Shown: positions 46,541 to 64,000, counted from the first letter of the stretch. The stretch is DNA of 64,000 nt from Thermoguttaceae bacterium (GCA_017403345.1 JAFQOH010000025.1:25602-89601); one strand, 5' to 3'. The notes: generated from the letters alone by a model not told the origin. Numbers and translations: made by a program.

Positions 46541-46704
46541 GAGCAAATTCCTGAAAAAGGTAGGACTAAAGGACAAAAAACAAAATGTCTCCCAATCATT
46601 TTAGCACAGATCTTCCAAAAAGCAAGATGCGGGGGAAAAAATCCTGCCGACTCAACAAAAAAAAGTCAAAATTTCGAGTCTCTAAAATGATTTTGTACCG
46701 GCAC

Positions 46705-46733
46705 TTGACTTCTTCCAGATTTTCCGGTAGAAT
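46705..46733 (+). promoter_or_regulatory. Sigma-70-like promoter candidate for the heparinase-like gene
   Basis: TTGACT (46705-46710), 17-nt spacer, TAGAAT (46728-46733). Confidence 0.45.
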
Positions 46734-46863
46734 AATCTGAAAGAATGCGAAAACATTCCGAACCGCAACGATAGCCGATCCATTTCAGCAGCGTGCCCTG
46801 CCCAAAAGATCCGCTAACGAATCAACCCGCCCTCTTTTCCTCACCTGTTTTCAGGAGCTGAAA

Positions 46864-49800
46864 ATGAACCATTTCATCCCGCTTTTTTTCATTTGTGGAA
46901 TTTTATCTTCCATCTTTACACTTCATGCGGTCCCCCTGACTGCGGCAGAACAAAATGTTCCCGCCTCTTCCGTACCTGCCGCATCTTCTCCCCCTATCGC
47001 ACATACCGACTCTCTTTCGCCAGTTTCCGACACAGAACGCCTTTCTCTTATGCCGGAAGAAAACTCTAGCTGGAAAGACTCCTGGAATTTCAAGAAAAAC
47101 GTAAAGCTCGAGCGAAACAGTGAATTGGATCTGCTTTCTGTAGAGATCGACCCTTCGGAGTTCGATTTCGGCTGGTTCCAGCGCAAGATACCGAACGGCG
47201 ATCTCTCGCAGTTCTGCGGGATCTACGGACGTTTTCGAGTCCCGCCGGGAAATTTCGGAAAAAAGCTCCACGCAATGATGGTCCTCGCGACCTCTGGAAA
47301 ACCGTCGGAATATTACACTCAGGAAATTGGACGGTGTGCAGACAGCGCAGGAAACTGGGTCGAATTTTTTCTTCCGTTTTCCCAATTCACTCCAAGCCGC
47401 AATGCTTCCGCCCGAGCATTTGGGACCCATCTTCTAAAACCGGGCGACGCACTCGAGATCTCGATCAGCGTCGGAACAACTCCCATGAAGATCGAGTTTG
47501 ACTCTCTCCGTTTCGTGCTCAAAGAGGAAGAGGCAACACTGGGACGAAGAGTCGCAAGAATGCGTTTCATGCGTCTTCTGAAACCCGGATCGGAAATCGG
47601 CGGAAACGTTCACCCGCGGCTTCTTCTTCATGGAAAACGGCTTGAACGCATTCGTGCAAAAGCCTCGGAAGGCGGGATCCAGCAAGCCGGATTTGAGCGG
47701 CTGATGGAACTGGCAGAAGATGCCATGAAAAAAATCGACGCGGAAGCCCCGCTGAAACGTGCGTTTGCCTACGAGCTGAATCCAGAGATGACCCCGCACC
47801 AAAACCGAGGACGCTTTGAAGGAACGCTCAACCCACTGGTCATTCCGCTGGAAACTCTCGCGGCGGCGGCCGTAATTTCCGGCAATGAACGCTACGGCAA
47901 ACACGCAGCACGCGCATTAGTGAACATGGCGCGCACTCTGGACGTTCATTCACCTGAGATCAGTCAGGGATTCTACTACACGCGGACTTTTTACGTACGG
48001 ACACTCGCCTTTGGATACGATTGGCTCTACCATTGGCTGACGCCGGAGGAAAGAATGGAGGTCAAAGCGACGCTCCTCGGATTCATCGACGACATTTACA
48101 CACGCTCGTGGGAGGGAAGCTGGGGCCGTCATCCTCTGGACCGGGTCTGGAACTGGGATCCCGGACTGGTTTCGTGTGCGGGACTCGGCATTTTGGCAAT
48201 GGAAGGAGAGACTCTCGCGGCAGAAGAGGCCATGCTTTTCCAATTCCGCCGACATCTGCGTGACTATCTGACGCTCGGCATCGATTTTGACGGCTGCTGT
48301 CACGAAGGTCCCGCCTATCTCAGTTACGGGATCGGGGCAGGACCGCATTTTGCAGAATGTCTGCGCGACCGGGGGCTTGGCGATCTTTTTGTGGAGACCA
48401 ACTGGAAATTGACCCCGATCTGGCTCACTGCGGAACTGCTGCCGAATCGCCGTCAGTGGAACAATCTCTCAGACTGCGGATCAGGTCAGGCTGCCGGCTC
48501 TCCGGTCTACGCATACACATGCGGACGCCTTGCGGAACTGGCCAAAACAGACCCGGTACGACGCGGTGAAAAGCTCGAAATTCCCAAGGAAACTTTCAGC
48601 GGACTCTCCTACCTCGCGCACTTTCAGGAAACTCCAGGACCGCGTCATCTTTCTATGGGAGCTCTTGCGGAACTGATGGGCTGGTGCTGGAACCATGGAA
48701 GCGGCGCACGTGCTCCTGAAAACTTCGGAGATGCCGCGGCACTGGCATTCGTGCTCTTCTACGAAGAGTGCCCCATCGCTGAAGATCCGGGGATCTACCT
48801 GCCGAAACTTCAGTTTTTCAGAGGACGCGGACTGGTCGTTGCGCGAGACGGCGGATATGGAAAGAACGCCCTCCATCTTGCCGTCGAAGCAGGGCCTCAT
48901 GCCGCTGGACATGACCAGAGCGACAAAGGAACCTTCACCCTGCGTGCTTTCGGCGCAGACATGGTCATCGACAGCGGATACGGAAATGACGGAAACCCAA
49001 ACGCCAGCGGAAGCAGTTTTGCGCACAACGTGGTCCTCATCGACGGTCAGGGCCAGCCGATGAATTGGCACAATTCCAGCGACGGTGAGATCACGGGGAT
49101 CCGACACTCCGAAACCTTTGACTGGATCCGCACTTCCGCGCTCAATGCGTGGAACTTCCGATACGCCGCCAAACAGAGGATCCCAACGGGACAGGAAGTA
49201 GAAAAGGCCGACCGACACTACATTCTCGTGCGCAGCACTGACGACGGGATCCCGCCGTATGTCGTGACGTTTGACGATTTCCGAAAAAAAGACGGTTCAG
49301 AACACGAATTTACCTGGCAGTGGCACATTCCGCCGGAAAATCGATTCCAGATCGGTGAAACGTCATGGACCTCCGTACCTACAGGCGGAAGTTACCGTGT
49401 CCTGACGACGAGACCGGACAAATGCCGAGGAAAAGCCGTTTTTGAACTCACGGCTCCGGAAACGGGACGATTCCAGATTGCAGGATTTACTCGATGCGCC
49501 GGCGCGGACCCGGGAAAATCCGACAGTTTCTGGGTGAAACTCAACGGAGGTCCCCGATCCTGCTGGGATCTCGTCAATTCCTTAAACTTCACGTGGAGCC
49601 TGCTTAAGGACCGCGAAGCCGGAACGCCGCACACACTCTACCTCACGAAAGGGGAAAAGGTCCGATGCGAGATCAGCGCAAGAGAACCGGAAGCGCAGCT
49701 CGCATTTCTTGCGCTGACGCCGGCAGATGAAGGGCTCCCGCCGTTTCCGGATGACGAGACCTCCATTCCGGAAGACGGTTCCATACTCGGAGCATTTTCT

Positions 49801-50181
49801 GCAGTCAGATCAGTAGGCACTTCTGAAGATCCCTTTCTTTTAGAGACCGTGACCCGGCAGGCCTCCAATGCCGTACTGACGGTCTTCCCTGTCTGTACTC
49901 CTGCAGGAAACACCTCAACGGAATGGTTCACCACGTCAAAAGAAGGGGTGCATCCCAAACTTCTGCACTCCGTTCAAGCCGTTGAACCAAAATTCCTCAT
50001 GGTCCTCATCCCCCGACAGGACGATTATGCGGCACTGCCGACCGTAAAAGCGCTGCACACAGCCCCAGAGCAAATCGGCACAGAGATCCAATGGCCCTGC
50101 GGCCGCGTTGACAGGATCGTATTTCGTCCGGGAGAAAACGGCATGATTCCGGAATTTCAGAGAGAGACCAGTCCGAAGTAA
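46864..50181 (+). CDS. Secreted heparinase II/III-like polysaccharide lyase family protein
   Basis: Signal peptide. HPRLLLHGKRLERIRAKASEG (N-terminal alpha/alpha-toroid entry motif). HAAGHDQSDKGTFTLRAFGADMVIDSGYG ... SSFAHNVVLIDGQGQ (heparinase II/III signature). Confidence 0.75.
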   Translation: MNHFIPLFFICGILSSIFTLHAVPLTAAEQNVPASSVPAASSPPIAHTDSLSPVSDTERLSLMPEENSSWKDSWNFKKNVKLERNSELDLLSVEIDPSEFDFGWFQRKIPNGDLSQFCGIYGRFRVPPGNFGKKLHAMMVLATSGKPSEYYTQEIGRCADSAGNWVEFFLPFSQFTPSRNASARAFGTHLLKPGDALEISISVGTTPMKIEFDSLRFVLKEEEATLGRRVARMRFMRLLKPGSEIGGNVHPRLLLHGKRLERIRAKASEGGIQQAGFERLMELAEDAMKKIDAEAPLKRAFAYELNPEMTPHQNRGRFEGTLNPLVIPLETLAAAAVISGNERYGKHAARALVNMARTLDVHSPEISQGFYYTRTFYVRTLAFGYDWLYHWLTPEERMEVKATLLGFIDDIYTRSWEGSWGRHPLDRVWNWDPGLVSCAGLGILAMEGETLAAEEAMLFQFRRHLRDYLTLGIDFDGCCHEGPAYLSYGIGAGPHFAECLRDRGLGDLFVETNWKLTPIWLTAELLPNRRQWNNLSDCGSGQAAGSPVYAYTCGRLAELAKTDPVRRGEKLEIPKETFSGLSYLAHFQETPGPRHLSMGALAELMGWCWNHGSGARAPENFGDAAALAFVLFYEECPIAEDPGIYLPKLQFFRGRGLVVARDGGYGKNALHLAVEAGPHAAGHDQSDKGTFTLRAFGADMVIDSGYGNDGNPNASGSSFAHNVVLIDGQGQPMNWHNSSDGEITGIRHSETFDWIRTSALNAWNFRYAAKQRIPTGQEVEKADRHYILVRSTDDGIPPYVVTFDDFRKKDGSEHEFTWQWHIPPENRFQIGETSWTSVPTGGSYRVLTTRPDKCRGKAVFELTAPETGRFQIAGFTRCAGADPGKSDSFWVKLNGGPRSCWDLVNSLNFTWSLLKDREAGTPHTLYLTKGEKVRCEISAREPEAQLAFLALTPADEGLPPFPDDETSIPEDGSILGAFSAVRSVGTSEDPFLLETVTRQASNAVLTVFPVCTPAGNTSTEWFTTSKEGVHPKLLHSVQAVEPKFLMVLIPRQDDYAALPTVKALHTAPEQIGTEIQWPCGRVDRIVFRPGENGMIPEFQRETSPK

Positions 50182-50215
50182 AAAACACGAAATACGTAAA
50201 AATGGAGAAAAACGC

Positions 50216-50255
50216 GAAACGGGGAGACGCCAAAACAAAACGTACTCCCCGTTTC
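50216..50255. terminator. Strong hairpin between convergent heparinase-like and kinase genes
   Basis: Perfect 11-bp stem gaaacggggag / ctccccgtttc. On the minus strand it is followed by gcgtttttctc. A second hairpin ccgaaga/tcttcgg lies at 50331-50349, just past the kinase stop. Confidence 0.6.
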
Positions 50256-50356
50256 TGATCCGTTTCCTGCGGCTTAACGCTCACTGTATTCAGCCTGAAA
50301 CGTGCCGGCAAAGTTTTGAAAATGTACCGACCGAAGAAACACTCTTCGGCCAGAGT

Positions 50357-51529
50357 TTAGCAAAACTGACCAATGAGCCAACAGATCGCAATAAATATTA
50401 TAAAGATAACACAGCCTGTGGCTTCGTTATCGGCCGATGGCGATGTTGCCGGTGCTGTTGCCGGTGCGGTCGGCGGTGCGGTCGGCGGCGGTGTCGTTGC
50501 CGAACCCTGCGCTCCTCCGCCATTCTGTTTGGCGGCCTGATTGATGGTATTTGGATACCCTGTATGTCTGGGACCGGAAGGTCTCTGGATCCTTCCCGGC
50601 TGCGGCAGACCAGCCAACACATTGTACCACTCATCCGGCGTTGGACGTCTTTTCTGGCCTGAGGGATTATTTACCGGATGGGTATCATGGAACGCACGCT
50701 TGAAAAGCTCGCGGATCTCCGCCGACAACGCATTCCAGCGATCCACACAGTGCGGATCGATCAGGGACGGATTCTGCGTGTAAGCAAAAAATCCCAGCTT
50801 CACGCATTCTTCATGACTTGACGGACCGTTTTTATGAGGATACGGCTGAACCATTCCATAAAACATGAACAGATGGAAAAAAAGGTACGCCAGTACATAA
50901 TTTTCTTCATCACACGTTCGTATGCGATTCGGATTCTGTAACCGCTCGGGACTGATATAAGTAGGCAACTGAACGTCGCATTCATGCCCGCCGATCATAA
51001 AACTGTCACTGTCGATGAGAGTAATATGATTGTTTTTTTCATTGAGTATGATATTCTGCGGCTGAAGGTCGCCCACGATAATCGGCCACTCGTTTTTCCC
51101 AATGTTAATATTATGCAGTGCACGGATCGTTTTTGCAATGTTTCTCGCGATATTTAGGATCGCATACTCATCCATCGTTTGGGAATTGTACATCTGAGTA
51201 AACCATTCACTCAGTTTGATCCCGTGGACTCGCGGAACGATATATCCCTGAAACTTATGCTGATAATAAACCGCATTCTGGATCCAGCACACATTGGACG
51301 TGATCTGCGAAAGCCCTGCGTGCATTGCTTCAAATGCCTCGATCTTCTGACGAAGCATATCCCATTTTTCGGGATCTGCTCTTTTATTGGATTTATATAT
51401 TTTCAACAGAAGATGCGATTTGCCCTGTATTTCATAAACGATCCCCTCTCCGCCCTCTGCGACTCGAGGACCGATCTTGTACCGGGTACCGTCCTTAAGA
51501 AAGACATTATTACCTGTTGTTGGAATCAT
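50357..51529 (-). CDS. Tail-anchored Ser/Thr protein kinase-like protein (TerY-P triad kinase)
   Basis: Gly loop AEGGEGIVYEI, Lys in LLLKIYK, catalytic loop IIVGDLQPQNIIL, LIDSDSF (DFG-equivalent) and YISPERL (APE-equivalent). C-terminal TPPPTAPPTAPATAPATSP linker plus TM GCVIFIIFIAICWLIGQFC. Confidence 0.75.
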   Translation of the reverse strand: MIPTTGNNVFLKDGTRYKIGPRVAEGGEGIVYEIQGKSHLLLKIYKSNKRADPEKWDMLRQKIEAFEAMHAGLSQITSNVCWIQNAVYYQHKFQGYIVPRVHGIKLSEWFTQMYNSQTMDEYAILNIARNIAKTIRALHNINIGKNEWPIIVGDLQPQNIILNEKNNHITLIDSDSFMIGGHECDVQLPTYISPERLQNPNRIRTCDEENYVLAYLFFHLFMFYGMVQPYPHKNGPSSHEECVKLGFFAYTQNPSLIDPHCVDRWNALSAEIRELFKRAFHDTHPVNNPSGQKRRPTPDEWYNVLAGLPQPGRIQRPSGPRHTGYPNTINQAAKQNGGGAQGSATTPPPTAPPTAPATAPATSPSADNEATGCVIFIIFIAICWLIGQFC

Positions 51530-51570
51530 GTTATTACCTGATCTAAATCTTGAACCTTCTTTCGTTTATC

Positions 51571-54054
51571 CTAGAATTCCGAGGGCTTGTCAAATACTTC
51601 AACAGAGGGAGTATACGGTGTCTTTCCAAAATCTTCCACGGGATTTGGAGAGACAGCCGGACTCTGAACACTAGCTCCGGCACCATTCGGTCCCTGACGG
51701 TTAGTCTGATCGGCATTTCCGTTACGATTCAGTCCCTGACCGTTAGCCTGATCGGCATTTCCGTTACGATTCAGTCCCTGACCGTTAGTCTGATCGGCAT
51801 TTCCGGCACCATTCGGTCCCTGACCGTTAGACTGATCGGCATTTCCGTTACGATTCAGTCCCTGACCGTTAGCCTGATCGGCATTTTCAGCACCATTCGG
51901 TCCCCAACCGTTAGTCTGATCGGCATTTTCGGCACCATTCGGTCCCCAACCGTTAGCCTGATCGGCATTTCCGTTACGATTCAGTTCCTGACCGTTAGCC
52001 TGATCGGCATTTCCGTTACGATTCAGTCCCTGACCGTTAGCCTGATCGGCATTTCCGTTACGATTCAGTCCCTGACCGTTAGCCTGATCGGCATTTCCGT
52101 TACGATTCAGTCCCTGACCGTTAGTCTGATCGGCATTTTCGGCACCATTCGGTCCCTGAACGTTAGACTGATCAGCATTTCCGTTACGATTCGGTCCCTG
52201 AACGTTAGACTGATCGGCATTTTCGGCACCATTCGGTCCCTGAACGTTAGACTGATCAGCATTTCCGTTACGATTCGGTCCCTGACCGTTAGCCTGATCG
52301 GCATTTCCGGCTCCATTCAGTTCCCAACCGTAATTCTGACCGCCATCCGATTCCTGAACGCTATCAGGAGCGACTTTTTCGTCATCTTGCGAAACATCTT
52401 CCGAGATCATAGGACTGGGATCACCGCTCTTCGGTTCCGGTGGAATTTTAGGTTCAGAATCAGTTTTCTCGTGACCGAACTCCTGCGTCTCTGCATCTTT
52501 GCCGGTTTTGTGCATCATTTCTTCGATTTTTTTAGAATCTTCACCGTCCGTACTCTCCTTGAACTCCGGAGGCGGCGATTGGAACGCTCCCTTATCCATG
52601 ACCATAGGCCGTAATACAAGATATCCAAAAAAGACAATGAAACTGAGCAGCACGCCGATTATAAAAATGCAAACCATCTCCATACCCCTCTCATTGCTGC
52701 TCGGATCGGAAGTCGGCGTACTTGGATCAGATTTCGGCCTAGCCGGAGCAGAGGTCGGGTGCGTGCCCGAATTGGATGTCAGACGTGTGCCCGAATTGGG
52801 AGTCAGACGCGTGCCCGGATCAGAGGTCGTACGTGTGCCCGGATCGGCGGTCAGGCGCGTACCCAGTATGTCTCGCCCCGAAATCGGTTTCGGATCCGAC
52901 ATTGAAGGCACAGACTGCGTCGTTTTCTTTCGCGGCTCATAAGGGACAGGCTGAAATTCGATCTTCTGTTCCTGCTGCGGCATCATGCTCTTTTTGATAA
53001 GTCCGAGAGTACAGTCGTCAAAGACCTTGATCTCCTGCATCTGTTTGATGGCGTCGATGATTTTTTCATGCGACCTGCGCGGAGTATCCAAATCCGTCAG
53101 CAGCGAGGCAAATAGTTCCGACGTCGACGGTTCAAACGGCACCCACTTCTCGATCAAACACTGTTCCGGACCATCGGAAAACAGCATGAAATCAGAAAGC
53201 CGCTTTTCACGAAATTGCGGCATTTCCGAATGCAGGAGCCTCATTTTTTCGATCGCATTCTCACTCGTGATGAAGGTCGTCGTATTGGAATGCTCACCAT
53301 TGTCGGGAGCAGAAAGCACAAAAGGTTTCCGTTCCCATTCGTCTATGGCGAAAATACCTCCGTCCCCCAGATGCAGCGTGACCCAGCTTCCGTCATCTCC
53401 CACGAGACACGCAACGATCGTGCAGCCGTATTCATTGTACGGACACTCGGTCTGCCCGATGATCGTTCGTTCATTTTCCGAATCCAGAAGCCCTCTCTCA
53501 CGGACCAGCCTCGGCAGCTCCGACTCAACGAAACGCTGCCATTGGGGCAAAAGTACCGTGTAAAGTTTCTGTCTGGCATAATGATCGATCCCCTTGCAGT
53601 TTCCTTTAGACGCGGGCGGCAGTTTTTCTACGATACACGAGCGGCTCCATTCGGAAATAATATTTTTCATTTGGTTTCCCAGAAACGCGCTATAATCATC
53701 AGAGGCAAGATTCCCTATTTTTGTCAGCTCTTCATGAATGCGAAACTTCCACTCATCCGCGAACAGATCGAAAATTGCCTGCCGTAAAGAAGTTTTCGCG
53801 TTCAAAAGCTCACGTTCTGAAAAACGAGAAAAACTATCCGCATTCCTAAAAAGCCATTCCACAACATAACGGCTGGTAATTTCCGCACCGATCTGGCTCC
53901 ACGCACAGCTTCCCCCGCCGTCGCAAACGCACAATGCCGTGTAAGTCCGGCCTCTGATCTTTCGAATTTCCGCATAAGCTGCATCTTCACAGGGAGTATT
54001 ATCTGCAACATGCGATCTTCCCTGAACGGAAGCATAAGATACAATGTGACTCAT
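51571..54054 (-). CDS. PP2C-family phosphatase with central TM helix and long repeat-containing exported tail
   Basis: N-terminal PP2C_2-like motifs SVQGRSHVADNTPCEDAAY, ALCVCDGGGS, TLHLGDGGIFAI, LFSDGPEQ. TM MVCIFIIGVLLSFIVFFGYLVL. Then an acidic segment and 15 x ~14-aa NGNADQANGQGLNR repeats. ATG 54054 is preceded by gaaagga. Confidence 0.75.
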   Translation of the reverse strand: MSHIVSYASVQGRSHVADNTPCEDAAYAEIRKIRGRTYTALCVCDGGGSCAWSQIGAEITSRYVVEWLFRNADSFSRFSERELLNAKTSLRQAIFDLFADEWKFRIHEELTKIGNLASDDYSAFLGNQMKNIISEWSRSCIVEKLPPASKGNCKGIDHYARQKLYTVLLPQWQRFVESELPRLVRERGLLDSENERTIIGQTECPYNEYGCTIVACLVGDDGSWVTLHLGDGGIFAIDEWERKPFVLSAPDNGEHSNTTTFITSENAIEKMRLLHSEMPQFREKRLSDFMLFSDGPEQCLIEKWVPFEPSTSELFASLLTDLDTPRRSHEKIIDAIKQMQEIKVFDDCTLGLIKKSMMPQQEQKIEFQPVPYEPRKKTTQSVPSMSDPKPISGRDILGTRLTADPGTRTTSDPGTRLTPNSGTRLTSNSGTHPTSAPARPKSDPSTPTSDPSSNERGMEMVCIFIIGVLLSFIVFFGYLVLRPMVMDKGAFQSPPPEFKESTDGEDSKKIEEMMHKTGKDAETQEFGHEKTDSEPKIPPEPKSGDPSPMISEDVSQDDEKVAPDSVQESDGGQNYGWELNGAGNADQANGQGPNRNGNADQSNVQGPNGAENADQSNVQGPNRNGNADQSNVQGPNGAENADQTNGQGLNRNGNADQANGQGLNRNGNADQANGQGLNRNGNADQANGQELNRNGNADQANGWGPNGAENADQTNGWGPNGAENADQANGQGLNRNGNADQSNGQGPNGAGNADQTNGQGLNRNGNADQANGQGLNRNGNADQTNRQGPNGAGASVQSPAVSPNPVEDFGKTPYTPSVEVFDKPSEF
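51676..52335 (-). repeat. In-frame 42-bp tandem repeat, ~15 copies
   Basis: Plus-strand unit gtccctgaccgttagcctgatcggcatttccgttacgattca with a few point variants. Fifteen NADQ-containing peptide units were counted in the translation. Confidence 0.9.
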
Positions 54055-54130
54055 GATCTTTCCTTTCAATTCTATTTTTTGTTAAATTCCAGATGATCCG
54101 ACGATCCCAAACCGCCAAATGATACTGAAA

Positions 54131-54286
54131 TCAAAGTTCACTTTTTACGTCAAACGCTCTCAAGAGCATCTCTATACCGATGCGAACCGACCGGCGCCAT
54201 CAAATAGAACCGGAAATATCGATATAAAAGACACGTGGAAGAAATGGACTGCTTCCATAACGGAAACTGCCATTTTCAGAATTCAT
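54131..54286 (-). pseudogene. Collapsed remnant of a second TerY-like vWA gene
   Basis: Minus-strand frame reads MNSENGSFRYGSSPFLPRVFYIDISGSI*WRRSVRIGIEMLLRAFDVKSEL*. Its N-part aligns with the N-terminus of the intact neighbour (GNGPFLPVIFCMDVSGSM). Its C-part aligns with that neighbour's C-terminus (IDMEQLMRAFDVKR*). Both parts are in the same frame, with an in-frame stop at 54200-54202. Confidence 0.6.
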
Positions 54287-54360
54287 TTTTGCCAAACTCT
54301 TTGATCGACATTAGTCCCTCCGATACTCCGAAGAATACCGGAGGTCCAAAATTCAAGCAT

Positions 54361-55053
54361 TTACCGTTTCACATCAAACGCTCTCATGAGCTGTTCCATA
54401 TCGATCTGATGGCCGGCGTCAGTATTCGATCTTGCCGTCGCGCTGGCACTCATCGAGAAGAATTTGAAAAATTCCGCAAAAGAATTCGTATCTTTCAAAG
54501 AAAGAGCGATCCCTTCGGTACTGAAACTCTTGAGAGTTTCCCAATCGACACCGTCGCCAATTCCGATGGGGAACGAAACGAGTTTTCTAGCTTTACAGAG
54601 GGAAATGACCTCGTTGGCCGCATTGCGAACGTCAGTCGCATCTTCCTGCGTGGATTTCATCCCGGTATAGTGTGCGCCGTCCGTAAAAAGGACGATCCAC
54701 GGCTGATAGTAAGTCACGCCGTCACGCTGGTATTCCTTTTTTTTCTCATTGAGGATCTCAAGCGCTTTGTTCACTGCGCCGGCGAGATCCGTACAGCCAT
54801 CGGCTTGAAGAACTGGAAGATTCCAGTTCGACACGGCTTCGAAATCCTGAACGACATGGACATTACTTTCAAACGTAATGACCGCGCCGCGAACGACTTT
54901 ATTCGCCTGTTCATCGCTTTGGACATCCCTGACGAACTGCCGAAAACCATCCTGCATTGCTGCGATATTATGCAGCATGGAGCCAGAAACGTCCATGCAG
55001 AAAATCACAGGAAGAAACGGACCATTGCCTGTTGGGAAAACGAAATCTTGCAT
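54361..55053 (-). CDS. TerY-like von Willebrand factor A domain protein
   Basis: MIDAS DxSxS in LPVIFCMDVSGSM. Later vWA motifs TDLAGAVNKAL and WIVLFTDGAHYTG. ATG 55053 (aaagga upstream) is preferred. The ORF track starts at GTG 55116. Confidence 0.8.
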   Translation of the reverse strand: MQDFVFPTGNGPFLPVIFCMDVSGSMLHNIAAMQDGFRQFVRDVQSDEQANKVVRGAVITFESNVHVVQDFEAVSNWNLPVLQADGCTDLAGAVNKALEILNEKKKEYQRDGVTYYQPWIVLFTDGAHYTGMKSTQEDATDVRNAANEVISLCKARKLVSFPIGIGDGVDWETLKSFSTEGIALSLKDTNSFAEFFKFFSMSASATARSNTDAGHQIDMEQLMRAFDVKR

Positions 55054-55134
55054 GAATCTATCCTTTCTAAAGGTCAGTAGAGTATGAAGAATCAAATTTT
55101 TATCAAATCGATTCACTGGAAATAAATTTTCCCC

Positions 55135-55161
55135 ATTTTACCCCCCCCCCCGAAAAGTCAA
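55135..55161 (-). promoter_or_regulatory. Promoter candidate with a G11 homopolymer forming most of the -35/-10 spacer
   Basis: Minus strand: TTGACT (55161-55156), tttc + 11 G (15-nt spacer, 55155-55141), TAAAAT (55140-55135). Confidence 0.5.
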
Positions 55162-55514
55162 GTACCCCCTATCTTAAATTCTTGAAAATTTTTAAATTTT
55201 AAAATTTCAGAAGATCCCAAGACCATTTTCATACGATTTCTCTGTTTGAAACTTTCGGTTTCCAGGATTTTGTCAGAAAAATCCGGATTTTGCTCTAGGC
55301 GGAATCGGAAATTCTTTCTATACTGTAGTTTTGGGGAGAAGCTGGAGCTTTTCATTTCGAGAACACTTTCGGATCCGAGATTCCTTTAGTATTGGCGCAG
55401 TCGATTTATTTAAAACAGGATCCGCTTAAAAAAACTCCGCTTCAGAGATAAAATTTCATTTTTCACACGGACACAGTCCAAATATTTCAAGCACGGGGAC
55501 GAACCGATTTGCGA

Positions 55515-58500
55515 ATGAAAGCCGTTTTTTTCATTTTGCTCTTTTTCGGATACACCGCTGCCTCTTTTGCAGGCAGTCCGGAGACGGTACGTCTGCGTTT
55601 GCGCTGGGGCGGCATCGAGAGTTCGGCATTCGGTGAAGTTCACTGCGAAAGCGGCTCGATGAGCGCACTGTCTCCGATCTCCATGGATCCAGACTGTCCC
55701 GGCGGCGCGTGGCTCGTGAACGGCAGCGTTCAGATACGTCAATCCGTCACGAAAAAATACAATGGGTTCGACGTGACGGTCCCGTACCTGCCGGACGCCA
55801 ATCTTTTGGTCCAGCTCGGTCCAGAAGCCGATTATTCGTCTGCTGTGCGTTTCGCGATACCGCTTCGTGAGATCATCCGCAGCGGCAAAACAGCTTCGCT
55901 TGCCGAGGATTCCAAATTCCAGTTTTCAGTCAGCCGCGTTCCTGGCGACGACCTCCGGATCCAGATGGACCGCGACAATCTTGTCTTCGCTCCGCGCGAT
56001 ATGTTTCAGTGTACCGTCACACCAGCGCTTTGCTGGGAAGAGCCGGTCCGAGCTGGACATAAAAAAGACCCGGCCCCCAAAAATGAAACCATTCCGCAGG
56101 CGAAGGAGATCGGCGAGCTTGAATTTTCAGTTTACCGCGGCAGAGAGACCTTTTCTGTCCACAGCGGAACGGTCCAGAATGTGCATCTCGACGGCACGAT
56201 GCCGGCTCAGATCCATTTTCCTGTCCCCGAAAATGAAGGCGTCTACGACGTCATTTTAAAACTGCGCCGTAAAACCGGAGGTAAAAATCTTCTTCAAACG
56301 CTGGGAAACACGTTCAGCGGACGAGATGCGAATGAGGAGATCCTTGCGGAACGGCGCATTCAGTTTCTTGTTTTAAATGACACGGTCATTTCCTTTTCTG
56401 ATTCCGGAAATTACGCACTAAAAATGGAGATCGACCCGAGCGTTCCTCAATGGTGGAAAAGTCTCGACCCGGACGTTCTGCGTCAGTTTGGATCCTGGTT
56501 TCCCAACGCAGCCTCCCTTCAGAACAGGAATCGGCGGATCCTCGCAGGCGAAAAGCAAAATTTCATGGAACTGCCTCAGGGTCCCCTTCCAGATACAGAT
56601 CCGGCTTGGGAAGCATTTCCGCTCATCGTCGAAAGTCCATGGATGCCGCACATTCTTGAGATCGAATACCCCGCGAACATGGAGCAGACCTACAGTCTGA
56701 GCATTCTGGAGCCGAACGCAGCAGGCGCGATCGAACCGCCTGGGATCGATTCCGGCATCAACGTCCCGCCGCAGATCGGGATCACAGCACAGACTCCCAT
56801 CCGTCTGGACAGGCATCACATCCTGTTTTGGCCGCAGAGCAAAACACCGATCCTTTTGATGGTGAACCGTCACGCACAAAATTCCGCGTACATCGGCAAG
56901 ATCCGGCTCTACCATGCAGGGAGCCATTTTGCGCCCCAAAAGAGCATTCAGACCGCATCCGGCACACAGGCCCCCCAAACGGTTCCCGACCGTGTTTCCA
57001 AACGTCTCGTTGCGCTTTTGATCAGCAAGCCAATGTTTTCGCAGACATTTTCCGCCACGGAAATGAACAATGAAACGACCGGACAGTGCATCTCCGACTG
57101 GCTCACGTTCTACGAAGGCGGGAAACGGCTCATCGAGTACATGCGGCACGTGGGATTCAATGGTCTGGTACTGTCGGTCTACTCGGACGGAAGCACCATC
57201 TATCCGAGCCGTATCCTCAATCCCACACCGCGCTATGACAATGGAACGTACTTTCCGACAGCGCAGGATCCCGTTCGAAAAGACATCACAGAGATGCTTT
57301 TCCGCATGTTCGACCGCGAAAACCTAAAACTCATCCCCTCCATGGATTTTTCCTCGCCGATCAGCAGTCTGGAAACTGCCGTTTACTTTCCCAACGCAGC
57401 GGAAGTCAGTTCGCTAGGCACGCCCGCCAGCCCGCTGCGATGGGTCAATCACCGCGGCAGGGAACTCATAACACAGCGAAAGTCCCTCAAACACGGCGCT
57501 CCGTACTACAACATCTTGAATCCGACGGTCCAGGAAACCGTTTTGCGCAGCATCGCAGAAGTGGTCCGGCGATACGGACACCATCCATCCTTCGGCGGAC
57601 TTTCACTCCAGCTTCACTCCGACAGTTTCCTCGTTCTTCCAAATCCGCAATGGGGAATGGATCCGGACAGCATCGCGAGCTTCATTCAGGACACCGGCAT
57701 GACTGTCCCCGAGGACTACATGAGCCGCGTCCGTTTTCTGACCTCTGGTCCCGGTGCGAAACAGTGGATCCAGTGGCGCGCGGCACGGATGACCATCTTC
57801 TACCGAAGAGCCGCCGCACTGCTGAGTACCATTCCGAACGCAAAACTTTACCTGAACGGCATGAAGCTCTTTTGCCTGAATGCCCATCCGGAACTCATGC
57901 CTCGACTGGACGGCATCCTTTCCGCCGAAGAGGTCTTTCTCTATTTCGGTTTGGACATGGAGCAGCTGAAACTCGTCCCCAACCTCGTCGTTTCACGGCC
58001 GCAGGAGATCCTCACGAACAAACCGCTCACCAAACAGGCGGGCGACCTTCAGTGGCAGCAGACACCAGGCACGTACCGAATGTTCCAGGACCAAAAGGAA
58101 CCCACGTCACTTTTCCACCACCCGGCAGACCTCCTGCGTCTTACGTCTTTCGATTCCGCAAGTCCCTTCAAGCCGACTTTTACGTGGATGGCGACGACCT
58201 ATGCGCAAACGACTCCGGAGGCTCGCCGACCATACGCGGAATCCCTCGCCATGCTTGACGCCTTCACCATCATGGAAGGGGGCTGGAATCCCGTTTTCGG
58301 CAAGGAAGAAGCTCTTCGCGAGACCATTTCGATCCTTTCACAGCTGCCGGCCGTTCATTTCAATTCTGCGATGAACACGACCTCCGAAACACCGCATTCC
58401 GCCTCCAGGATCGTGATATTCCGCTCCTGTTCGCAGCATGGAACGAATTACGCGTATGCCGTGAATACGACCCCATTCACAGCCATAGGGAAAGTTTACG

Positions 58501-59963
58501 TCCAGCAGGCCGCCGATTCCCAGGATGTGACCGCCTCCTCGATCTCAGCTCTTTACCTGAAAGACGGCTCAGGCGTGACTCTTCAGCGTGACACGCGCGG
58601 TCTTTTCTGGCAGGTCCAGCTCGCACCATACCAGATCGAAGCGATCCAGTTCACCGGCTCCCCGATCATGCTTTTAGATCCGGTCTCCAAAACCCTGCAG
58701 GATACACGCGAGCTATTTCGTCAGGAATATTCAAGGCTTTTAGTCTCGCTGGAAAACCTGAAAAAACCAGTCTACTACCTAGGACTGAAAAACCCCGGTT
58801 TCGAACAGCCCCTCGGCGAAAACGGCGAGATGCCGTACTGGACCGTTTCCTACCCTCAAAGACAGAATCCAGGATTGGCGCAAATGGCTTTCGGTGCTTC
58901 CGGAACAACGTTAAACGGCACGTCGCCAAACGGCACGTTTTCAGGAGGAACACCGACTGCCGCAGGAAGTACAGGAGCTGCGTCTTGGGAAAATCCCGCA
59001 AATTCGGCCCTAAACGGCACAGAAAGGCTTCCCGGAACGGCATTACCGTCCGATCTCCTTTCCTCTTCCATCTCCTCTTCAGGAGCGACCGTCCGCATGG
59101 CTGGTCCGAATAGCGGGGCCGGTCCTAGTTCAGCCGGAATGGAAACGGATCCGGCAAACCGACACGCGTCGGCCGAGCTCGGCGCCCAAAATGTGATCTT
59201 CGGGACCAGCGCCCTCCAACTCAAAAGCACCGGTACTCCGATCCGCGTCATGAGTCACCCGTTCGAGCTGAATGCGACCGGACGTCTGACGGTCTACGTC
59301 TGGCTTCGTACCGATCAAAACACGACCTCCATTCCTCTTCGGTTCGTCGTGCGCGGCGAAGCACCTTCCGGCAAATTCTACCGGACCGCGAACCTCTCCG
59401 CACCTCAAACGGGGATCGGAAGTGAATGGAAACGCTTGAACATCCCGGTCAATGACCTGCCGCTTGAAAAAGGAACGCAGCTAAGCCTCGGTTTTGAACT
59501 TTACGGCGCCGGCAGCGTCTGGCTGGACAATATCCAGCTCTCAGACATCGATTTCTCACCGGCAGAGATCGCTCAGATCCAGGGAATTTTCACGCAGCTC
59601 GGAAATCGGATCGAGTGCGGCGACATCGCACCGTGCATCAATGCACTGGAATGCTACTGGCTCCGGTTCCTCAGCGAAAATGCGGGATCAGACCTCCCTC
59701 CCCATGCAGAGCCCATCGCCGAGCTCGCCATGGAGCATTCCCCTGCGGCGGGAACACCGGAAAAAACTTCGGAGGGGATCCAGGAACTCCCGGACAAAAA
59801 AAATCCCAAACTTCCCCATCTGGGCCAGCTTCCAAAATTGCCAAAATTTCCGACGAAAAGCTCCGAAGATCCACAAAAGGAACTCGACTCCAAGGTGATC
59901 GAGTCCCAGCAGGAAAAAAAACCGACCTATTTGGACAAAATCAAAGGTCTCCTGCCATGGTAA
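55515..59963 (+). CDS. Very large secreted protein of unknown function (possible GHL10-like TIM-barrel core and C-terminal CBM-like module)
   Basis: Signal peptide MKAVFFILLFFGYTAASFAG. The central segment HVGFNGLVLSVYSDGSTIYPSRILNPTPRYDNGTYF...MLFRMFDRENLKLIPSMDF weakly resembles glycoside-hydrolase-like family 10. The C-terminal beta-sandwich-like LTVYVWLRTDQNTTSIPLRFVVRGEA ... VWLDNIQLSD is followed by a K/P-rich tail. Confidence 0.5.
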   Translation: MKAVFFILLFFGYTAASFAGSPETVRLRLRWGGIESSAFGEVHCESGSMSALSPISMDPDCPGGAWLVNGSVQIRQSVTKKYNGFDVTVPYLPDANLLVQLGPEADYSSAVRFAIPLREIIRSGKTASLAEDSKFQFSVSRVPGDDLRIQMDRDNLVFAPRDMFQCTVTPALCWEEPVRAGHKKDPAPKNETIPQAKEIGELEFSVYRGRETFSVHSGTVQNVHLDGTMPAQIHFPVPENEGVYDVILKLRRKTGGKNLLQTLGNTFSGRDANEEILAERRIQFLVLNDTVISFSDSGNYALKMEIDPSVPQWWKSLDPDVLRQFGSWFPNAASLQNRNRRILAGEKQNFMELPQGPLPDTDPAWEAFPLIVESPWMPHILEIEYPANMEQTYSLSILEPNAAGAIEPPGIDSGINVPPQIGITAQTPIRLDRHHILFWPQSKTPILLMVNRHAQNSAYIGKIRLYHAGSHFAPQKSIQTASGTQAPQTVPDRVSKRLVALLISKPMFSQTFSATEMNNETTGQCISDWLTFYEGGKRLIEYMRHVGFNGLVLSVYSDGSTIYPSRILNPTPRYDNGTYFPTAQDPVRKDITEMLFRMFDRENLKLIPSMDFSSPISSLETAVYFPNAAEVSSLGTPASPLRWVNHRGRELITQRKSLKHGAPYYNILNPTVQETVLRSIAEVVRRYGHHPSFGGLSLQLHSDSFLVLPNPQWGMDPDSIASFIQDTGMTVPEDYMSRVRFLTSGPGAKQWIQWRAARMTIFYRRAAALLSTIPNAKLYLNGMKLFCLNAHPELMPRLDGILSAEEVFLYFGLDMEQLKLVPNLVVSRPQEILTNKPLTKQAGDLQWQQTPGTYRMFQDQKEPTSLFHHPADLLRLTSFDSASPFKPTFTWMATTYAQTTPEARRPYAESLAMLDAFTIMEGGWNPVFGKEEALRETISILSQLPAVHFNSAMNTTSETPHSASRIVIFRSCSQHGTNYAYAVNTTPFTAIGKVYVQQAADSQDVTASSISALYLKDGSGVTLQRDTRGLFWQVQLAPYQIEAIQFTGSPIMLLDPVSKTLQDTRELFRQEYSRLLVSLENLKKPVYYLGLKNPGFEQPLGENGEMPYWTVSYPQRQNPGLAQMAFGASGTTLNGTSPNGTFSGGTPTAAGSTGAASWENPANSALNGTERLPGTALPSDLLSSSISSSGATVRMAGPNSGAGPSSAGMETDPANRHASAELGAQNVIFGTSALQLKSTGTPIRVMSHPFELNATGRLTVYVWLRTDQNTTSIPLRFVVRGEAPSGKFYRTANLSAPQTGIGSEWKRLNIPVNDLPLEKGTQLSLGFELYGAGSVWLDNIQLSDIDFSPAEIAQIQGIFTQLGNRIECGDIAPCINALECYWLRFLSENAGSDLPPHAEPIAELAMEHSPAAGTPEKTSEGIQELPDKKNPKLPHLGQLPKLPKFPTKSSEDPQKELDSKVIESQQEKKPTYLDKIKGLLPW

Positions 59964-60040
59964 CCTGCTATGGCAAACAGATACCGTGCCGGATTTCTTC
60001 AAAATTTTCCTTTTTTTGGAAGATCGGCGGGCAAAATGCC

Positions 60041-60068
60041 TTGAGTTTTTGCCAAAATATGGTAAAAT
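60041..60068 (+). promoter_or_regulatory. Sigma-70-like promoter candidate for the GAF/HlyD operon
   Basis: TTGAGT (60041-60046), 16-nt spacer, TAAAAT (60063-60068). Confidence 0.35.
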
Positions 60069-60308
60069 ATAAAAGATTTTCGACACATAGGACCTGAAAG
60101 ATGCCTCTGCATACCCTGTGCCGCAGTTCCCGTTTTTCAGAAGCAGCGAAAGTTTCGATCCGGAACCGCCAGTAAACCGTTCATTCATGTACCGTTCCTT
60201 TTGAACGTCTGTTTCATTGGGATCCACGTTCCAGATCTGCTTTCCGTTCCCGTTCCCTTTTAACACCGTCACAACCCACAGTTCACCTGTTCATCCGGAA
60301 CGAATTTC

Positions 60309-62363: not shown

Positions 62364-62445
62364 CGCCAAATCCTTTTCACAAAAGCAAAAAAAACCTGAC
62401 TTCCATTTCCCCAAAAACACGATCCACCCTGTAAAAGGTCAAAAT

Positions 62446-63939: not shown

Positions 63940-64000
63940 ACGAAAACTTTTCATGACCGTTTCCTGATTTCCAAGCGCGGTCCATTTACCGCGATTTACG

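What the first reader, a model, noticed from the sequence alone, without database searches (positions are those of the whole stretch)
50216..55161. TerY-P-type triad (vWA + PP2C phosphatase + Ser/Thr kinase) in a membrane-tethered, repeat-bearing variant: candidate accessory or defence island
Three co-directional minus-strand genes make up the cassette. The first encodes a vWA protein with an intact MIDAS (CMDVSGSM, LFTDGAHY). The second encodes a PP2C_2-type phosphatase (SVQGRSHVADNTPCEDAAY, CVCDGGGS, HLGDGGIF, LFSDGPEQ). The third encodes a kinase with recognisable but divergent Hanks motifs (GGEGIVYEI, LLLKIYK, VGDLQPQNIIL, DSDSF, SPE). This is the gene content of the TerY-phosphorylation triad defined by comparative genomics of tellurite-resistance-associated genes. 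From memory it was later catalogued among anti-phage systems as TerY-P / Gao_TerY. Several features look non-canonical. The kinase is tail-anchored, with a P/T/A linker and a C-terminal TM. The phosphatase has a TM helix after the catalytic domain and about 330 residues of acidic plus N/Q/G-rich repeat tail, presumably outside the cell. A decayed second vWA copy is present. The promoter contains a homopolymer. Spot counts of three 60-nt lines in the kinase gene gave 33-47% GC, against about 55% for a line in hydB. The cassette is also bracketed by strong hairpins. Both observations are consistent with horizontal acquisition.
Basis: partly seen in the sequence, partly recalled or inferred. Interest (0 to 1): 0.8.

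Follow-up and report, generated by a model that had tools for sequence, protein, structure and literature searches.

The report
Membrane-anchored vWA–phosphatase–kinase triad island
A 4.9-kb three-gene insertion in a ruminant-gut planctomycete encodes a metal-binding vWA protein, a PP2C phosphatase and a YegI-like Ser/Thr kinase: a rare membrane-anchored variant of a common, known bacterial signalling and candidate anti-phage triad, whose function was not tested.

Summary
Three co-directional minus-strand genes encode a vWA protein with a complete MIDAS motif (54361-55053), a PP2C_2 phosphatase (51571-54054) and a divergent Ser/Thr kinase (50357-51529). Profile, homology and fold evidence support all three assignments.

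The cassette is an accessory island. Two sister Thermoguttaceae species keep both flanks collinear and have about 40 bp in place of window 50330-55266. Its GC content and codon usage are atypical for the host.

It is closest to E. coli YegL-PphC-YegI, with vWA at 35% identity and the kinase sharing the VGD and DSD loops. It is more distant from the tellurite-plasmid TerY-P. It lacks the C-terminal OB-fold, zinc-ribbon or HhH domain that other triad kinases carry, so I do not file it as a Gao-type TerY-P defence system.

A membrane anchor on the kinase is common in this family. A membrane-anchored phosphatase is rare: 2 of 63 neighbouring PP2Cs. Its 346-residue external tail, with 15 copies of a 14-residue N/G/Q/D repeat, was unmatched in that sample.

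The vWA relic and the G11 promoter-spacer tract are real, but phase variation is untested. Kinase and phosphatase show dN/dS near or above 1, against 0-0.19 for host flanks. That fits either an arms race or decay.

Verdict: a new variant of a known kind, of moderate interest.

The parts
50330..55266 (.). Accessory island, an indel relative to the sister species. It carries the three genes, the vWA relic and the promoter region. No integrase, transposase, tRNA or clear target-site duplication was found.
   Evidence: In L023 (Thermoguttaceae MAG) and L024, window 46002-50329 and 55267 onwards are collinear, with about 37-46 bp between them. Island GC is 0.483 against 0.532 for the rest of the window. 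Boundaries are good to about 25 bp.
54361..55053 (-). vWA gene (230 aa from the ATG preceded by AGGA). It is soluble, has a complete MIDAS motif and is YegL/TerY-like.
   Evidence: Pfam VWA_2 3e-11 and VWA 1e-9. 35% identity to E. coli YegL, E=1e-29, with DVSGS, T and TDG aligned. 27% identity to the ter-plasmid TerY. No transmembrane-like segment. Gene callers in 22 contigs use this start.
54131..54250 (-). Relic of a second, tandem vWA gene with an internal deletion. The N-terminal fragment is SPFLPRVFYIDISGSI* (54200-54250). The C-terminal fragment is IEMLLRAFDVKSEL* (54131-54175).
   Evidence: Frame translation and a 17/18-nt match to the 3' end of the intact vWA gene. Some related triads carry two or three vWA genes (L076, L099, L135; L073).
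51571..54054 (-). PP2C_2 phosphatase gene (827 aa from the ATG). It has a cytoplasmic catalytic domain, one transmembrane helix and a long external tail.
   Evidence: Pfam PP2C_2 2.8e-28. D24, D45, D231, D294 and D346/D347 are invariant in the alignment. The AF2 model matches PP2C structures at E of about 1e-8. Homology to PphC is in two segments, E of about 1e-7.
53440..53832 (-). Helical insert of about 130 residues (residues 75-205) inside the PP2C catalytic domain.
   Evidence: The insert is absent from PphC. It is shared with ortholog P0006 and expanded to about 400 residues in P0010. The model predicts it as helical with low pLDDT. Five of seven strain substitutions fall at residues 74-113.
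52743..52864 (-). 24-nt (8-residue) repeat, DPGTRLTx, about 5 copies, in the linker next to the membrane on the cytoplasmic side of the phosphatase.
   Evidence: Tandem Repeats Finder and translation. The copy pattern differs in strain L014.
52612..52668 (-). Transmembrane helix of the phosphatase (residues 463-481, IFIIGVLLSFIVFFGYLVL).
   Evidence: Kyte-Doolittle 19-residue mean of 2.85. Ortholog P0006 has a transmembrane segment at the equivalent place.
51688..52317 (-). Array of 15 tandem 42-nt (14-residue) units, NRNGNADQxNGQG[LP] and NGA[EG]NADQxNGQG[LP]. It lies within the 346-residue tail (residues 482-827, 51574-52611), which is presumed extracytoplasmic.
   Evidence: TRF gives period 42, 14.9 copies and 89% matches. 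Unit table. Other strains' genes are called at 813 aa (1 unit fewer) and 687 aa (10 units fewer). No Pfam hit and no homologue found.
50357..51529 (-). YegI-like Ser/Thr kinase gene (390 aa). It has a kinase domain of about residues 1-310, a disordered P/T/A linker and a C-terminal transmembrane tail anchor (residues 372-390, 50360-50416).
   Evidence: The G-loop GGEGIVY, K43, VGD154LQPQN and D173-S-D-S-F match YegI's VGDxxQxS and DSD loops (bioRxiv 10.1101/819920). Kyte-Doolittle mean 2.5, and AF2 predicts a helix at 368-389.
50327..50353 (-). Intrinsic-terminator-like hairpin (12 pairs followed by a T-rich tail) ending the operon, at the left edge of the island.
   Evidence: Terminator scan and sequence.
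55135..55161 (-). Promoter-like element: TTGACT (55156-55161), then a 15-nt spacer of TTTC plus G11 (55141-55151), then TAAAAT (55135-55140).
   Evidence: Sequence. The tract is G11 in 11 related contigs. Strain L014 has an interrupted 12-nt tract, GAGGAGGCGGGG. It is the only G/C run of 8 or more in the window. The consensus scan missed it because the spacer is under 16 nt.
55180..55214 (.). AT-rich near-palindrome upstream of the -35-like hexamer. It could be an operator or UP-like element, but this is untested.
   Evidence: Inverted-repeat search: 17-nt arms, 76% complementary. The region 55054-55266 is 33.8% GC.

Best explanation
This is a horizontally acquired three-gene operon of the YegL/PphC/YegI type, the broad 'TerY-P-like' vWA-PP2C-kinase triad. 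It sits in a ruminant-gut Thermoguttaceae (Planctomycetota) genome.

**Shown**
- All three domains are present with their catalytic or metal-binding residues intact.
- The order vWA, then PP2C, then kinase is the family norm.
- The cassette is absent from the same site in two sister species.
- Both enzymes carry a single strongly hydrophobic segment.

**Inferred mechanism**
The module is a reversible phosphorylation switch at the cytoplasmic membrane.
1. The tail-anchored kinase activates itself by autophosphorylating Ser in its DSD loop, as E. coli YegI does, and phosphorylates one or more targets.
2. The co-anchored PP2C resets it, as PphC dephosphorylates YegI.
3. The soluble vWA protein uses its MIDAS metal site as an adaptor or sensor for a ligand or phosphoprotein.
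4. This kinase has lost the nucleic-acid-binding C-terminal domain that other triads carry. The input is therefore most likely sensed at the envelope. The phosphatase's 346-residue acidic N/G/Q/D-repeat tail on the outer face of the membrane would act as the sensor or spacer.

The most likely biological role is a conflict or stress response such as anti-phage defence, not housekeeping. I put the identity, architecture and accessory status at about 0.9. I put an anti-phage role specifically at about 0.35.
For: - **Domains.**
- **Triad order.** Of 80 metagenome loci with related kinases, 72 have a PP2C_2 gene and 63 have both vWA and PP2C_2. These are almost always upstream on the same strand. 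The same holds for L017 and L021.
- **Accessory status.** Empty site. Gene GC is 0.479-0.511 against a host mean of 0.541 with sd 0.018, and the synonymous-codon score is lower. The orthologous triad in L017 has GC of 0.36-0.41 next to housekeeping genes at about 0.60.
- **Membrane anchoring.**. Anchoring is conserved in orthologs P0002, P0012 and P0006.
- **YegI and PphC biochemistry.** bioRxiv 10.1101/819920 and 10.1101/303594.
- **Defence precedent for such triads.** PMC11090510, citing Gao 2020. A P. aeruginosa TerY-P variant protects against Autographiviridae (10.1101/2022.08.12.503731).
- **Fast protein evolution.** Kinase plus phosphatase show 18 nonsynonymous to 4 synonymous changes. 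Host flanks in the same strain pairs show 31 to 76 (Fisher p=6e-6).
Against: - There are no functional data for this cassette or for any member of its small clade.
- The kinase has no OB-fold, zinc-ribbon or HhH domain, so the effector or sensor logic of the characterised defence triads may not apply.
- The neighbours are carbohydrate-active enzymes, not defence genes.
- PADLOC gives only generic kinase hits.
- The 18:4 ratio of nonsynonymous to synonymous changes is indistinguishable from neutral drift (binomial p=0.8).
- The promoter-like spacer is only 15 nt, so the operon may be weakly expressed or decaying.
- The N-in, C-out topology is inferred from the lack of a signal peptide. Charges flanking the phosphatase transmembrane segment (-2 on the N side, +1 on the C side) do not follow the positive-inside rule.
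Confidence: 0.6

Rival explanations
1. It is a bona fide member of the Gao et al. 2020 TerY-P (Gao_TerY) anti-phage system. It would work as those systems do and differ only in decoration.
For: It has the same three domain types in one operon. It is an accessory island. It shows rapid amino-acid change. TerY-P and a variant of it have shown anti-phage activity.
Against: PMC11090510 describes the stand-alone defence form as having the kinase fused to a C-terminal OB-fold. Here, residues 313-373 are disordered and residues 368-389 form a transmembrane helix, so there is no such domain. Similarity to classical TerY-P proteins is weak: kinase 21% identity at E=1e-7, PP2C at E=4e-7 and vWA at 27%. 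There was no PADLOC triad hit, though that test lacks a positive control.
Confidence: 0.2
2. It is a non-defence envelope or growth-signalling module, analogous to membrane Ser/Thr kinase and phosphatase pairs such as PknB/PstP. It would report the state of the periplasm or cell surface, with the vWA protein as an accessory partner.
For: Both enzymes are membrane-anchored, and the phosphatase has a long external tail. From my own knowledge, M. tuberculosis PstP has the same layout: a cytoplasmic PP2C domain, one transmembrane helix and an extracellular tail. No role of YegI/PphC in defence is reported in the sources I read.
Against: The cassette is dispensable, since two sister species lack it. 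It evolves without detectable purifying selection between strains. The external tail is a low-complexity repeat, not a recognisable sensor fold, and it is not conserved in ortholog P0006.
Confidence: 0.25
3. It is silent or decaying cargo: a recently acquired cassette that drifts neutrally and contributes nothing at present.
For: The ratio of nonsynonymous to synonymous changes is 18:4, equal to the neutral expectation. One vWA copy is already reduced to a relic. The promoter-like spacer is a sub-optimal 15 nt. The repeat array may vary in copy number.
Against: The three ORFs, about 4.3 kb of coding sequence, are intact in every strain sampled. All catalytic and MIDAS residues are retained. 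The same architecture survives at 28-45% identity in another genome, which implies long-term selection. All repeat-number differences are in frame.
Confidence: 0.15
4. It is a local regulator of the adjacent polysaccharide-degradation genes (GH106, the heparinase II/III-like gene and the GHL10 gene).
For: Physical adjacency only.
Against: The sister species keep the same carbohydrate-active enzyme genes without the cassette. The orthologous triad in L017 sits in an unrelated context. Triads of this family occur in many unrelated contexts.
Confidence: 0.03

Closest known systems
E. coli YegL (vWA) - PphC/YegK (PP2C) - YegI (Ser/Thr kinase) module
   Same: It has the same three proteins in the same order. 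The vWA is 35% identical with a conserved MIDAS motif. The kinase is 27% identical over 326 residues and shares the unusual VGD...Q catalytic loop and the DSD(SF) loop in place of DFG. The phosphatase is PP2C_2 type. The kinase is membrane-bound in both.
   Different: [quoted passage not shown] This kinase ends in a single transmembrane tail anchor with nothing beyond it. PphC is a soluble 253-residue protein. This phosphatase has 827 residues, a roughly 130-residue helical insert, a transmembrane helix and a 346-residue repeat tail. This cassette also carries a relic of a second vWA gene.
TerY-P (TerY-phosphorylation) triad of tellurite-resistance plasmids and CoCoNuT/McrBC islands (Anantharaman 2012, as cited in PMC11090510 and PMC4978471)
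   Same: Gene content is TerY-like vWA, PP2C and Ser/Thr kinase in one operon. Multiple vWA paralogues are common, compare the relic here. It is island-borne.
   Different: Sequence similarity is weak: vWA 27%, kinase 21% at E=1e-7 and PP2C at E=4e-7. There is no linkage to ter genes, TerY-C, McrBC or DNA-processing genes. The kinase has no zinc-ribbon.
Gao et al. 2020 TerY-P stand-alone anti-phage system, and the P. aeruginosa variant
   Same: A three-gene stand-alone cassette with the same domain types. It is accessory and fast-evolving.
   Different: The defence form is described with an OB-fold on the kinase C-terminus (PMC11090510), which is absent here. No profile-level membership could be shown. 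The phenotype is untested.
Orthologous triad in MAG GCA_017394775.1 (L017/L019; P0002 and P0006)
   Same: This is the closest natural relative. The kinase is 45% identical and also tail-anchored. The PP2C is 28% identical with the same helical insert, a transmembrane helix and an external C-terminal region. It is also a low-GC island.
   Different: It sits in a different genomic context. Its external region is a roughly 125-residue non-repetitive segment instead of the 14-residue repeat array. It has no vWA relic and carries an extra 154-residue multi-transmembrane ORF after the kinase.
Membrane PP2C phosphatases such as M. tuberculosis PstP (from my own knowledge, not tested here)
   Same: The layout is a cytoplasmic PP2C domain, a linker next to the membrane, a single transmembrane helix and an extracellular low-complexity tail.
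   Different: PstP is a conserved housekeeping partner of PknA/PknB in a cell-division operon. It is not part of a vWA triad or a mobile island. No homology beyond the PP2C fold was examined.

Membership tests
TerY-P-type triad in the broad sense (vWA + PP2C + Ser/Thr kinase operon) | TerY/YegL-like vWA gene with a MIDAS motif | tested here: met
   Pfam VWA_2 and VWA. 35% identity to YegL with MIDAS residues aligned. 27% identity to the ter-plasmid TerY.
TerY-P-type triad in the broad sense (vWA + PP2C + Ser/Thr kinase operon) | Adjacent PP2C-family phosphatase with catalytic acidic residues | tested here: met
   PP2C_2 at 2.8e-28. Invariant D24, D45, D231, D294 and D346/D347. Fold match.
TerY-P-type triad in the broad sense (vWA + PP2C + Ser/Thr kinase operon) | Adjacent Ser/Thr kinase in the same transcription unit | tested here: met
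   The gaps are 306 nt (holding the relic) and 41 nt, with a single terminator after the kinase. The same order is found in 63 of 80 related loci.
TerY-P-type triad in the broad sense (vWA + PP2C + Ser/Thr kinase operon) | Association with ter genes or with DNA-processing or restriction modules. This is typical but not obligatory. | tested here: not met
   The neighbours are GH106, a heparinase II/III-like gene, a GHL10 gene and unknowns. Contrast L073.
Gao et al. 2020 TerY-P anti-phage system (Gao_TerY) | Kinase fused at its C-terminus to an OB-fold (per PMC11090510), or to a zinc-ribbon in the CoCoNuT-linked form | tested here: not met
   After residue ~310 there is only a disordered P/T/A linker and a transmembrane helix. 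No Pfam domain was found.
Gao et al. 2020 TerY-P anti-phage system (Gao_TerY) | Match to the curated defence-system profile models | tested here: inconclusive
   PADLOC-DB 2.0.0 gave no hit for vWA or PP2C, and the kinase hit only PD-T4-6, MkoA and mad6 generically. YegL/PphC and the classical ter-plasmid TerY-P proteins also gave no hit, so there is no positive control. DefenseFinder was not available.
Gao et al. 2020 TerY-P anti-phage system (Gao_TerY) | Confers phage resistance | not testable with these tools
   This needs heterologous expression and phage challenge.
E. coli YegL-PphC-YegI module | Kinase with a VGDxxQx(S/N) catalytic loop and a DSD loop replacing DFG | tested here: met
   VGDLQPQN and IDSDSF. 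The YegI features are taken from bioRxiv 10.1101/819920.
E. coli YegL-PphC-YegI module | [quoted passage not shown] | tested here: not met
   There is one transmembrane-like segment at the extreme C-terminus and no C-terminal domain. YegI has an HHH_5-like stretch at residues 517-552.
E. coli YegL-PphC-YegI module | Short soluble PP2C_2 phosphatase (about 250 aa) | tested here: not met
   This phosphatase has 827 aa with a transmembrane helix and a tail. The median length of 63 neighbouring PP2Cs is 256 aa, and only 2 have a C-terminal transmembrane segment.
Phase-variable (contingency) locus | Homopolymeric tract within the promoter spacer or the coding sequence | tested here: met
   G11 lies between TTGACT and TAAAAT. 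It is unique in the window.
Phase-variable (contingency) locus | Tract length varies within or between populations | tested here: inconclusive
   The tract is G11 in all 11 contigs that carry it. One strain has an interrupted 12-nt tract. Consensus assemblies cannot show variation at the read level.

The most novel reading that the evidence does not exclude
This is an envelope-sensing branch of the TerY-P/YegLKI triads. The nucleic-acid-binding domain of the kinase has been replaced by membrane co-localisation of kinase and phosphatase. The phosphatase's hypervariable external 14-residue repeat tail is the receptor or decoy that detects phage adsorption or envelope damage. The whole operon is switched on and off by slippage of the G11 tract in the promoter spacer.
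Probability: 0.12. Interest if true: 0.65.

Novelty: new variant of a known kind. Interest (0 to 1): 0.4.

Why it matters
vWA-PP2C-kinase triads are very widespread. The kinase alone has more than 4,000 cluster representatives at E below 1e-3. They include an experimentally validated anti-phage system, yet how they sense and what they act on is unknown.

This small clade strips the kinase down to its catalytic domain plus a membrane anchor. It moves the only obvious candidate sensor region onto the phosphatase, outside the membrane. If the clade is active, it offers a simpler system for asking where the input to the triad enters.

It is also one of the few candidate conflict systems described in gut Planctomycetota. 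As it stands, it is an annotated architectural variant without functional evidence.

Tried and rejected
- **PADLOC scan.** I ran it on the three proteins and on controls: YegL/PphC/YegI, L017, L021 and the ter-plasmid TerY-P. No vWA or PP2C model hit anything, so the test cannot decide membership.
- **Homology search with the repeat tail alone.** There were 8,000 word candidates and none at E of 0.001 or better. Even the near-identical strain proteins did not come back, so this is uninformative.
- **Phosphatase search.** It likewise did not return the self cluster.
- **Viral contigs.** One distant kinase relative was found. There is no evidence that the cassette is phage-borne.
- **Rfam on 49900-55700.** Only a chance snoRNA-like hit at E=0.5.
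- **PDB sequence search with the vWA and the kinase domain.** No solved relative at E of 0.01 or better.
- **Search for terminal inverted repeats or target-site duplications at the island ends.** None was convincing. The 8-mer TTGAAAAT recurs near both ends but not at the junctions.
- **dN/dS among the contigs retrieved by exact protein identity.** The coding regions are identical by construction. It became useful only with the more divergent strains L156 and L014.
- **Idea that the cassette regulates the neighbouring carbohydrate-active enzyme genes.** Rejected, because the sister species keep those genes without the cassette.
- **Reading of the hairpins as island boundaries.** Rejected. One hairpin is the host gene's terminator and the other is the operon's own.


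Full report
**What is there**

Window 50330-55266 carries three co-directional minus-strand genes.
- The first (54361-55053, 230 aa from an ATG preceded by AGGA) is a vWA protein. It scores Pfam VWA_2 at 3e-11 and VWA at 1e-9. Its D-V-S-G-S, T and D MIDAS residues align with those of E. coli YegL at 35% identity (E=1e-29).
- The second (51571-54054, 827 aa) is a PP2C_2 phosphatase (2.8e-28). Every metal-binding acidic residue is invariant across seven relatives. Its AlphaFold model matches plant and bacterial PP2C structures at E of about 1e-8.
- The third (50357-51529, 390 aa) scores just below Pfam's Pkinase cut-off (29.7 against 31.7 bits). It is nevertheless clearly a kinase.

The evidence for the kinase is as follows.
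- The model (core pLDDT about 90) matches CaMKII, BRAF and other kinases at E of about 1e-10.
- It is 27% identical to E. coli YegI over 326 residues (E=2e-21).
- An exhaustive HMMER search found 4,106 cluster representatives at E below 1e-3.
- YegI, a biochemically proven kinase, does not reach E of 0.01 against Pfam Pkinase at all. The weak Pfam score is therefore a property of the family.
- The G-loop (GGEGIVY), K43, the VGD154LQPQN catalytic loop and the D173-S-D-S-F loop match the unusual VGDxxQxS and DSD signatures reported for YegI.

**Organism and accessory status**

Near-identical contigs (99-100%) occur only in ruminant-gut metagenomes, and always with the same flanks.

A scan of GTDB species representatives with the flanking heparinase-like protein found two sister species. 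One is a Thermoguttaceae MAG (L023, 88% amino-acid identity). The other is an 'uncultured Planctomycetaceae' MAG (L024, 86%).

In both, window 46002-50329 and 55267-64000 are collinear. Only about 37-46 bp, a terminator hairpin, stand in place of the 4,937-bp cassette. L023 and L024 are closer to each other (92%) than to the window (88%). One gain or one loss is therefore equally parsimonious.

Composition favours gain.
- Island GC is 0.483 against 0.532 for the rest of the window.
- Gene GC is 0.479-0.511 against 0.541 with sd 0.018 for 18 host genes, and the synonymous-codon score is lower.
- The only close orthologue (kinase 45%, phosphatase 28% identity) sits in a completely different context in MAG GCA_017394775.1. 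There its GC is 0.36-0.41 beside housekeeping genes at about 0.60.

No integrase, transposase, tRNA, terminal repeat or target duplication was found.

**Which known system it belongs to**

The literature defines the TerY-P triad as a TerY-like vWA protein, a PP2C and a Ser/Thr kinase (PMC4978471; PMC11090510). The kinase is fused to a zinc-ribbon in CoCoNuT-linked forms. It is fused to an OB-fold in the stand-alone anti-phage form of Gao et al. 2020.

I fetched the archetypal tellurite-plasmid locus, L073: vWA, TerD, vWA, TerY-C, PP2C, kinase. The window proteins are only distantly similar to it. The vWA is 27% identical, the kinase is 21% identical at E=1e-7, and the PP2C scores E=4e-7. They are much closer to E. 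coli YegL, PphC and YegI.

A census of 80 metagenome loci with related kinases gave these results.
- 72 loci have a PP2C_2 gene.
- 63 loci have both vWA and PP2C_2.
- These genes are almost always upstream on the same strand.

The triad and its order are therefore the family norm.

PADLOC gave no triad hit. It also gave none for YegL/PphC, for the relatives or for the classical TerY-P proteins. That test has no positive control and is inconclusive.

The kinase has nothing after about residue 310 except a disordered P/T/A linker and a terminal helix. The OB-fold or zinc-ribbon feature is therefore not met. I do not file the cassette as a Gao-type TerY-P system. It is a member of the broad triad family, on the YegLKI branch.

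**What is and is not unusual**

The kinase's C-terminal hydrophobic segment (residues 372-390, Kyte-Doolittle mean 2.5) and the phosphatase's segment (463-481, mean 2.85) are strong transmembrane candidates.

A membrane kinase is ordinary here.
- 74 of the top 150 family representatives have transmembrane-like segments, and 12 look tail-anchored.
- YegI is a two-pass inner-membrane protein.

A membrane phosphatase is not ordinary.
- Among 63 distinct PP2Cs next to related kinases, the median length is 256 aa.
- Only two have a genuine C-terminal transmembrane segment. One has a 32-residue tail and the other has none.

The clade formed by the window, P0002/P0006 and P0012 keeps membrane anchors but has quite different external tails.

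The window tail (residues 482-827) has a net charge of about -27. It is 16% N, 15% G and 10% Q. It contains 15 tandem 14-residue units of two subtypes, whose DNA is 79-100% identical. It has no Pfam match or detectable homologue.

Other assemblies call the gene at 813 and 687 aa, which is one and ten units fewer, always in frame. Contigs often break inside the array, so copy-number variation needs long reads to confirm.

The phosphatase also has a helical insert of about 130 residues in its catalytic domain. It shares this with P0006, and P0010 has it in expanded form.

**Relic and promoter**

The 306-nt gap between the vWA and phosphatase genes contains, in one frame, two fragments that match the two ends of the intact vWA.
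- The first is SPFLPRVFYIDISGSI followed by a stop. It resembles the MIDAS start GPFLPVIFCMDVSGSM.
- The second is IEMLLRAFDVKSEL followed by a stop. It resembles the C-terminus QLMRAFDVKR and includes a 17/18-nt DNA match.

Together they are the relic of a second vWA gene that lost its middle. Related triads with two or three vWA genes exist.

Upstream lies TTGACT, then TTTC plus G11, then TAAAAT. The spacer is 15 nt. The G11 run is the only G/C run of 8 or more in the 64-kb window, where 0.05 are expected.

Eleven related contigs carry G11. One strain, L014, carries an interrupted 12-nt tract. Tract length does not vary among the assemblies that carry the homopolymer, so phase variation is a hypothesis only.

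The hairpin at 50216-50255 is the host gene's terminator, inside the region shared with the sister species. The hairpin at 50327-50353 is the operon's own terminator.

**Selection**

I compared the window with two more divergent strains.

| Comparison | Gene | Nonsynonymous | Synonymous | omega |
|---|---|---|---|---|
| Window vs L156 | kinase | 10 | 1 | about 2.8 |
| Window vs L156 | heparinase-like (flank) | 20 | 32 | 0.19 |
| Window vs L156 | GH106 (flank) | 6 | 25 | 0.07 |
| Window vs L014 | phosphatase residues 1-390 | 8 | 3 | 0.75 |
| Window vs L014 | GHL10 (flank) | 5 | 9 | 0.17 |
| Window vs L014 | 684-aa gene at 60309-62363 (flank) | 0 | 10 | 0 |

- Pooled, the cassette shows 18 to 4 and the flanks show 31 to 76 (Fisher p=6e-6).
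- The cassette ratio is indistinguishable from neutrality (p=0.8).
- Five of the seven phosphatase substitutions fall in the helical insert.

This pattern fits either an arms race or relaxed constraint. All ORFs and catalytic residues are intact in every strain. The architecture also persists at 28-45% identity in another genome, which argues for long-term function.

**Mechanism (inferred)**

YegI autophosphorylates on serines that include the DSD loop, and PphC dephosphorylates it. By analogy, I propose a membrane-localised phospho-switch.
1. The tail-anchored kinase is activated by autophosphorylation.
2. The co-anchored PP2C resets it.
3. The soluble vWA protein couples the switch to a ligand or phosphoprotein through its MIDAS site.

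The usual nucleic-acid-binding domain is missing from this kinase. The input therefore most plausibly comes from the envelope through the phosphatase's external tail.

An anti-phage or stress role is the best guess (about 0.35 for anti-phage), for two reasons.
- There is precedent for triads of this kind acting in defence.
- The cassette is accessory and evolves fast.

Nothing here tests that role.

**Verdict**

This is a new architectural variant of a known and very common triad. It is not a demonstrated defence system. Interest is moderate, at 0.4.

Noticed in passing
window 55180-55214: An AT-rich near-palindrome (17-nt arms, 76% complementary) lies immediately upstream of the -35-like hexamer of the operon. 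It is a possible regulator-binding or UP-like element.
   Followed up: no
window 51550-52614 (+): A 354-aa ORF on the opposite strand consists of 'SLTVSLIGISVTIQ'-type repeats. It is a shadow of the 42-nt repeat array in the phosphatase gene and not a gene.
   Followed up: partly
window 50444-50488 and 52743-52864: There are two further short in-frame repeats. One is a 12-nt unit (PTAP-type) in the kinase linker. The other is a 24-nt unit (DPGTRLTx, about 5 copies) in the phosphatase linker next to the membrane. The second differs in copy pattern in strain L014.
   Followed up: partly
L017 7462-11547 (MAG GCA_017394775.1): The orthologous triad has GC of 0.36-0.41 next to housekeeping genes at about 0.60. 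It is followed by an extra 154-aa multi-transmembrane ORF that is absent from the window. A variable DNA-methylase segment lies about 5 kb upstream in some strains.
   Followed up: partly
L001-L016, L159, L160 (metagenome contigs): Scaffolds carry N-gaps, or contigs end, inside the phosphatase repeat array. In gapped scaffolds the gene callers replaced the phosphatase gene with spurious small ORFs. Apparent copy-number alleles may partly be assembly artefacts.
   Followed up: partly
L022 1040-2986 (E. coli K-12 yegI): YegI is an experimentally active kinase, yet it does not match Pfam Pkinase at E of 0.01 or better. It shows only a weak HHH_5 stretch at residues 517-552. Pfam-based annotation systematically under-calls this kinase family.
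   Followed up: no
window 50216-50255: A perfect 11-bp stem with an 18-nt loop follows the heparinase-like gene. It is that host gene's terminator and lies in sequence shared with the sister species. In those species, a different hairpin occupies the empty site.
   Followed up: yes
window 42614-50181 and 55509-62363: The island is embedded in a run of large carbohydrate-active or unknown secreted proteins (GH106, heparinase II/III-like, GHL10-like, and 1,320 to 1,484-aa ORFs). Related contigs show an autotransporter-domain protein and an [FeFe]-hydrogenase-like gene further upstream.
   Followed up: no
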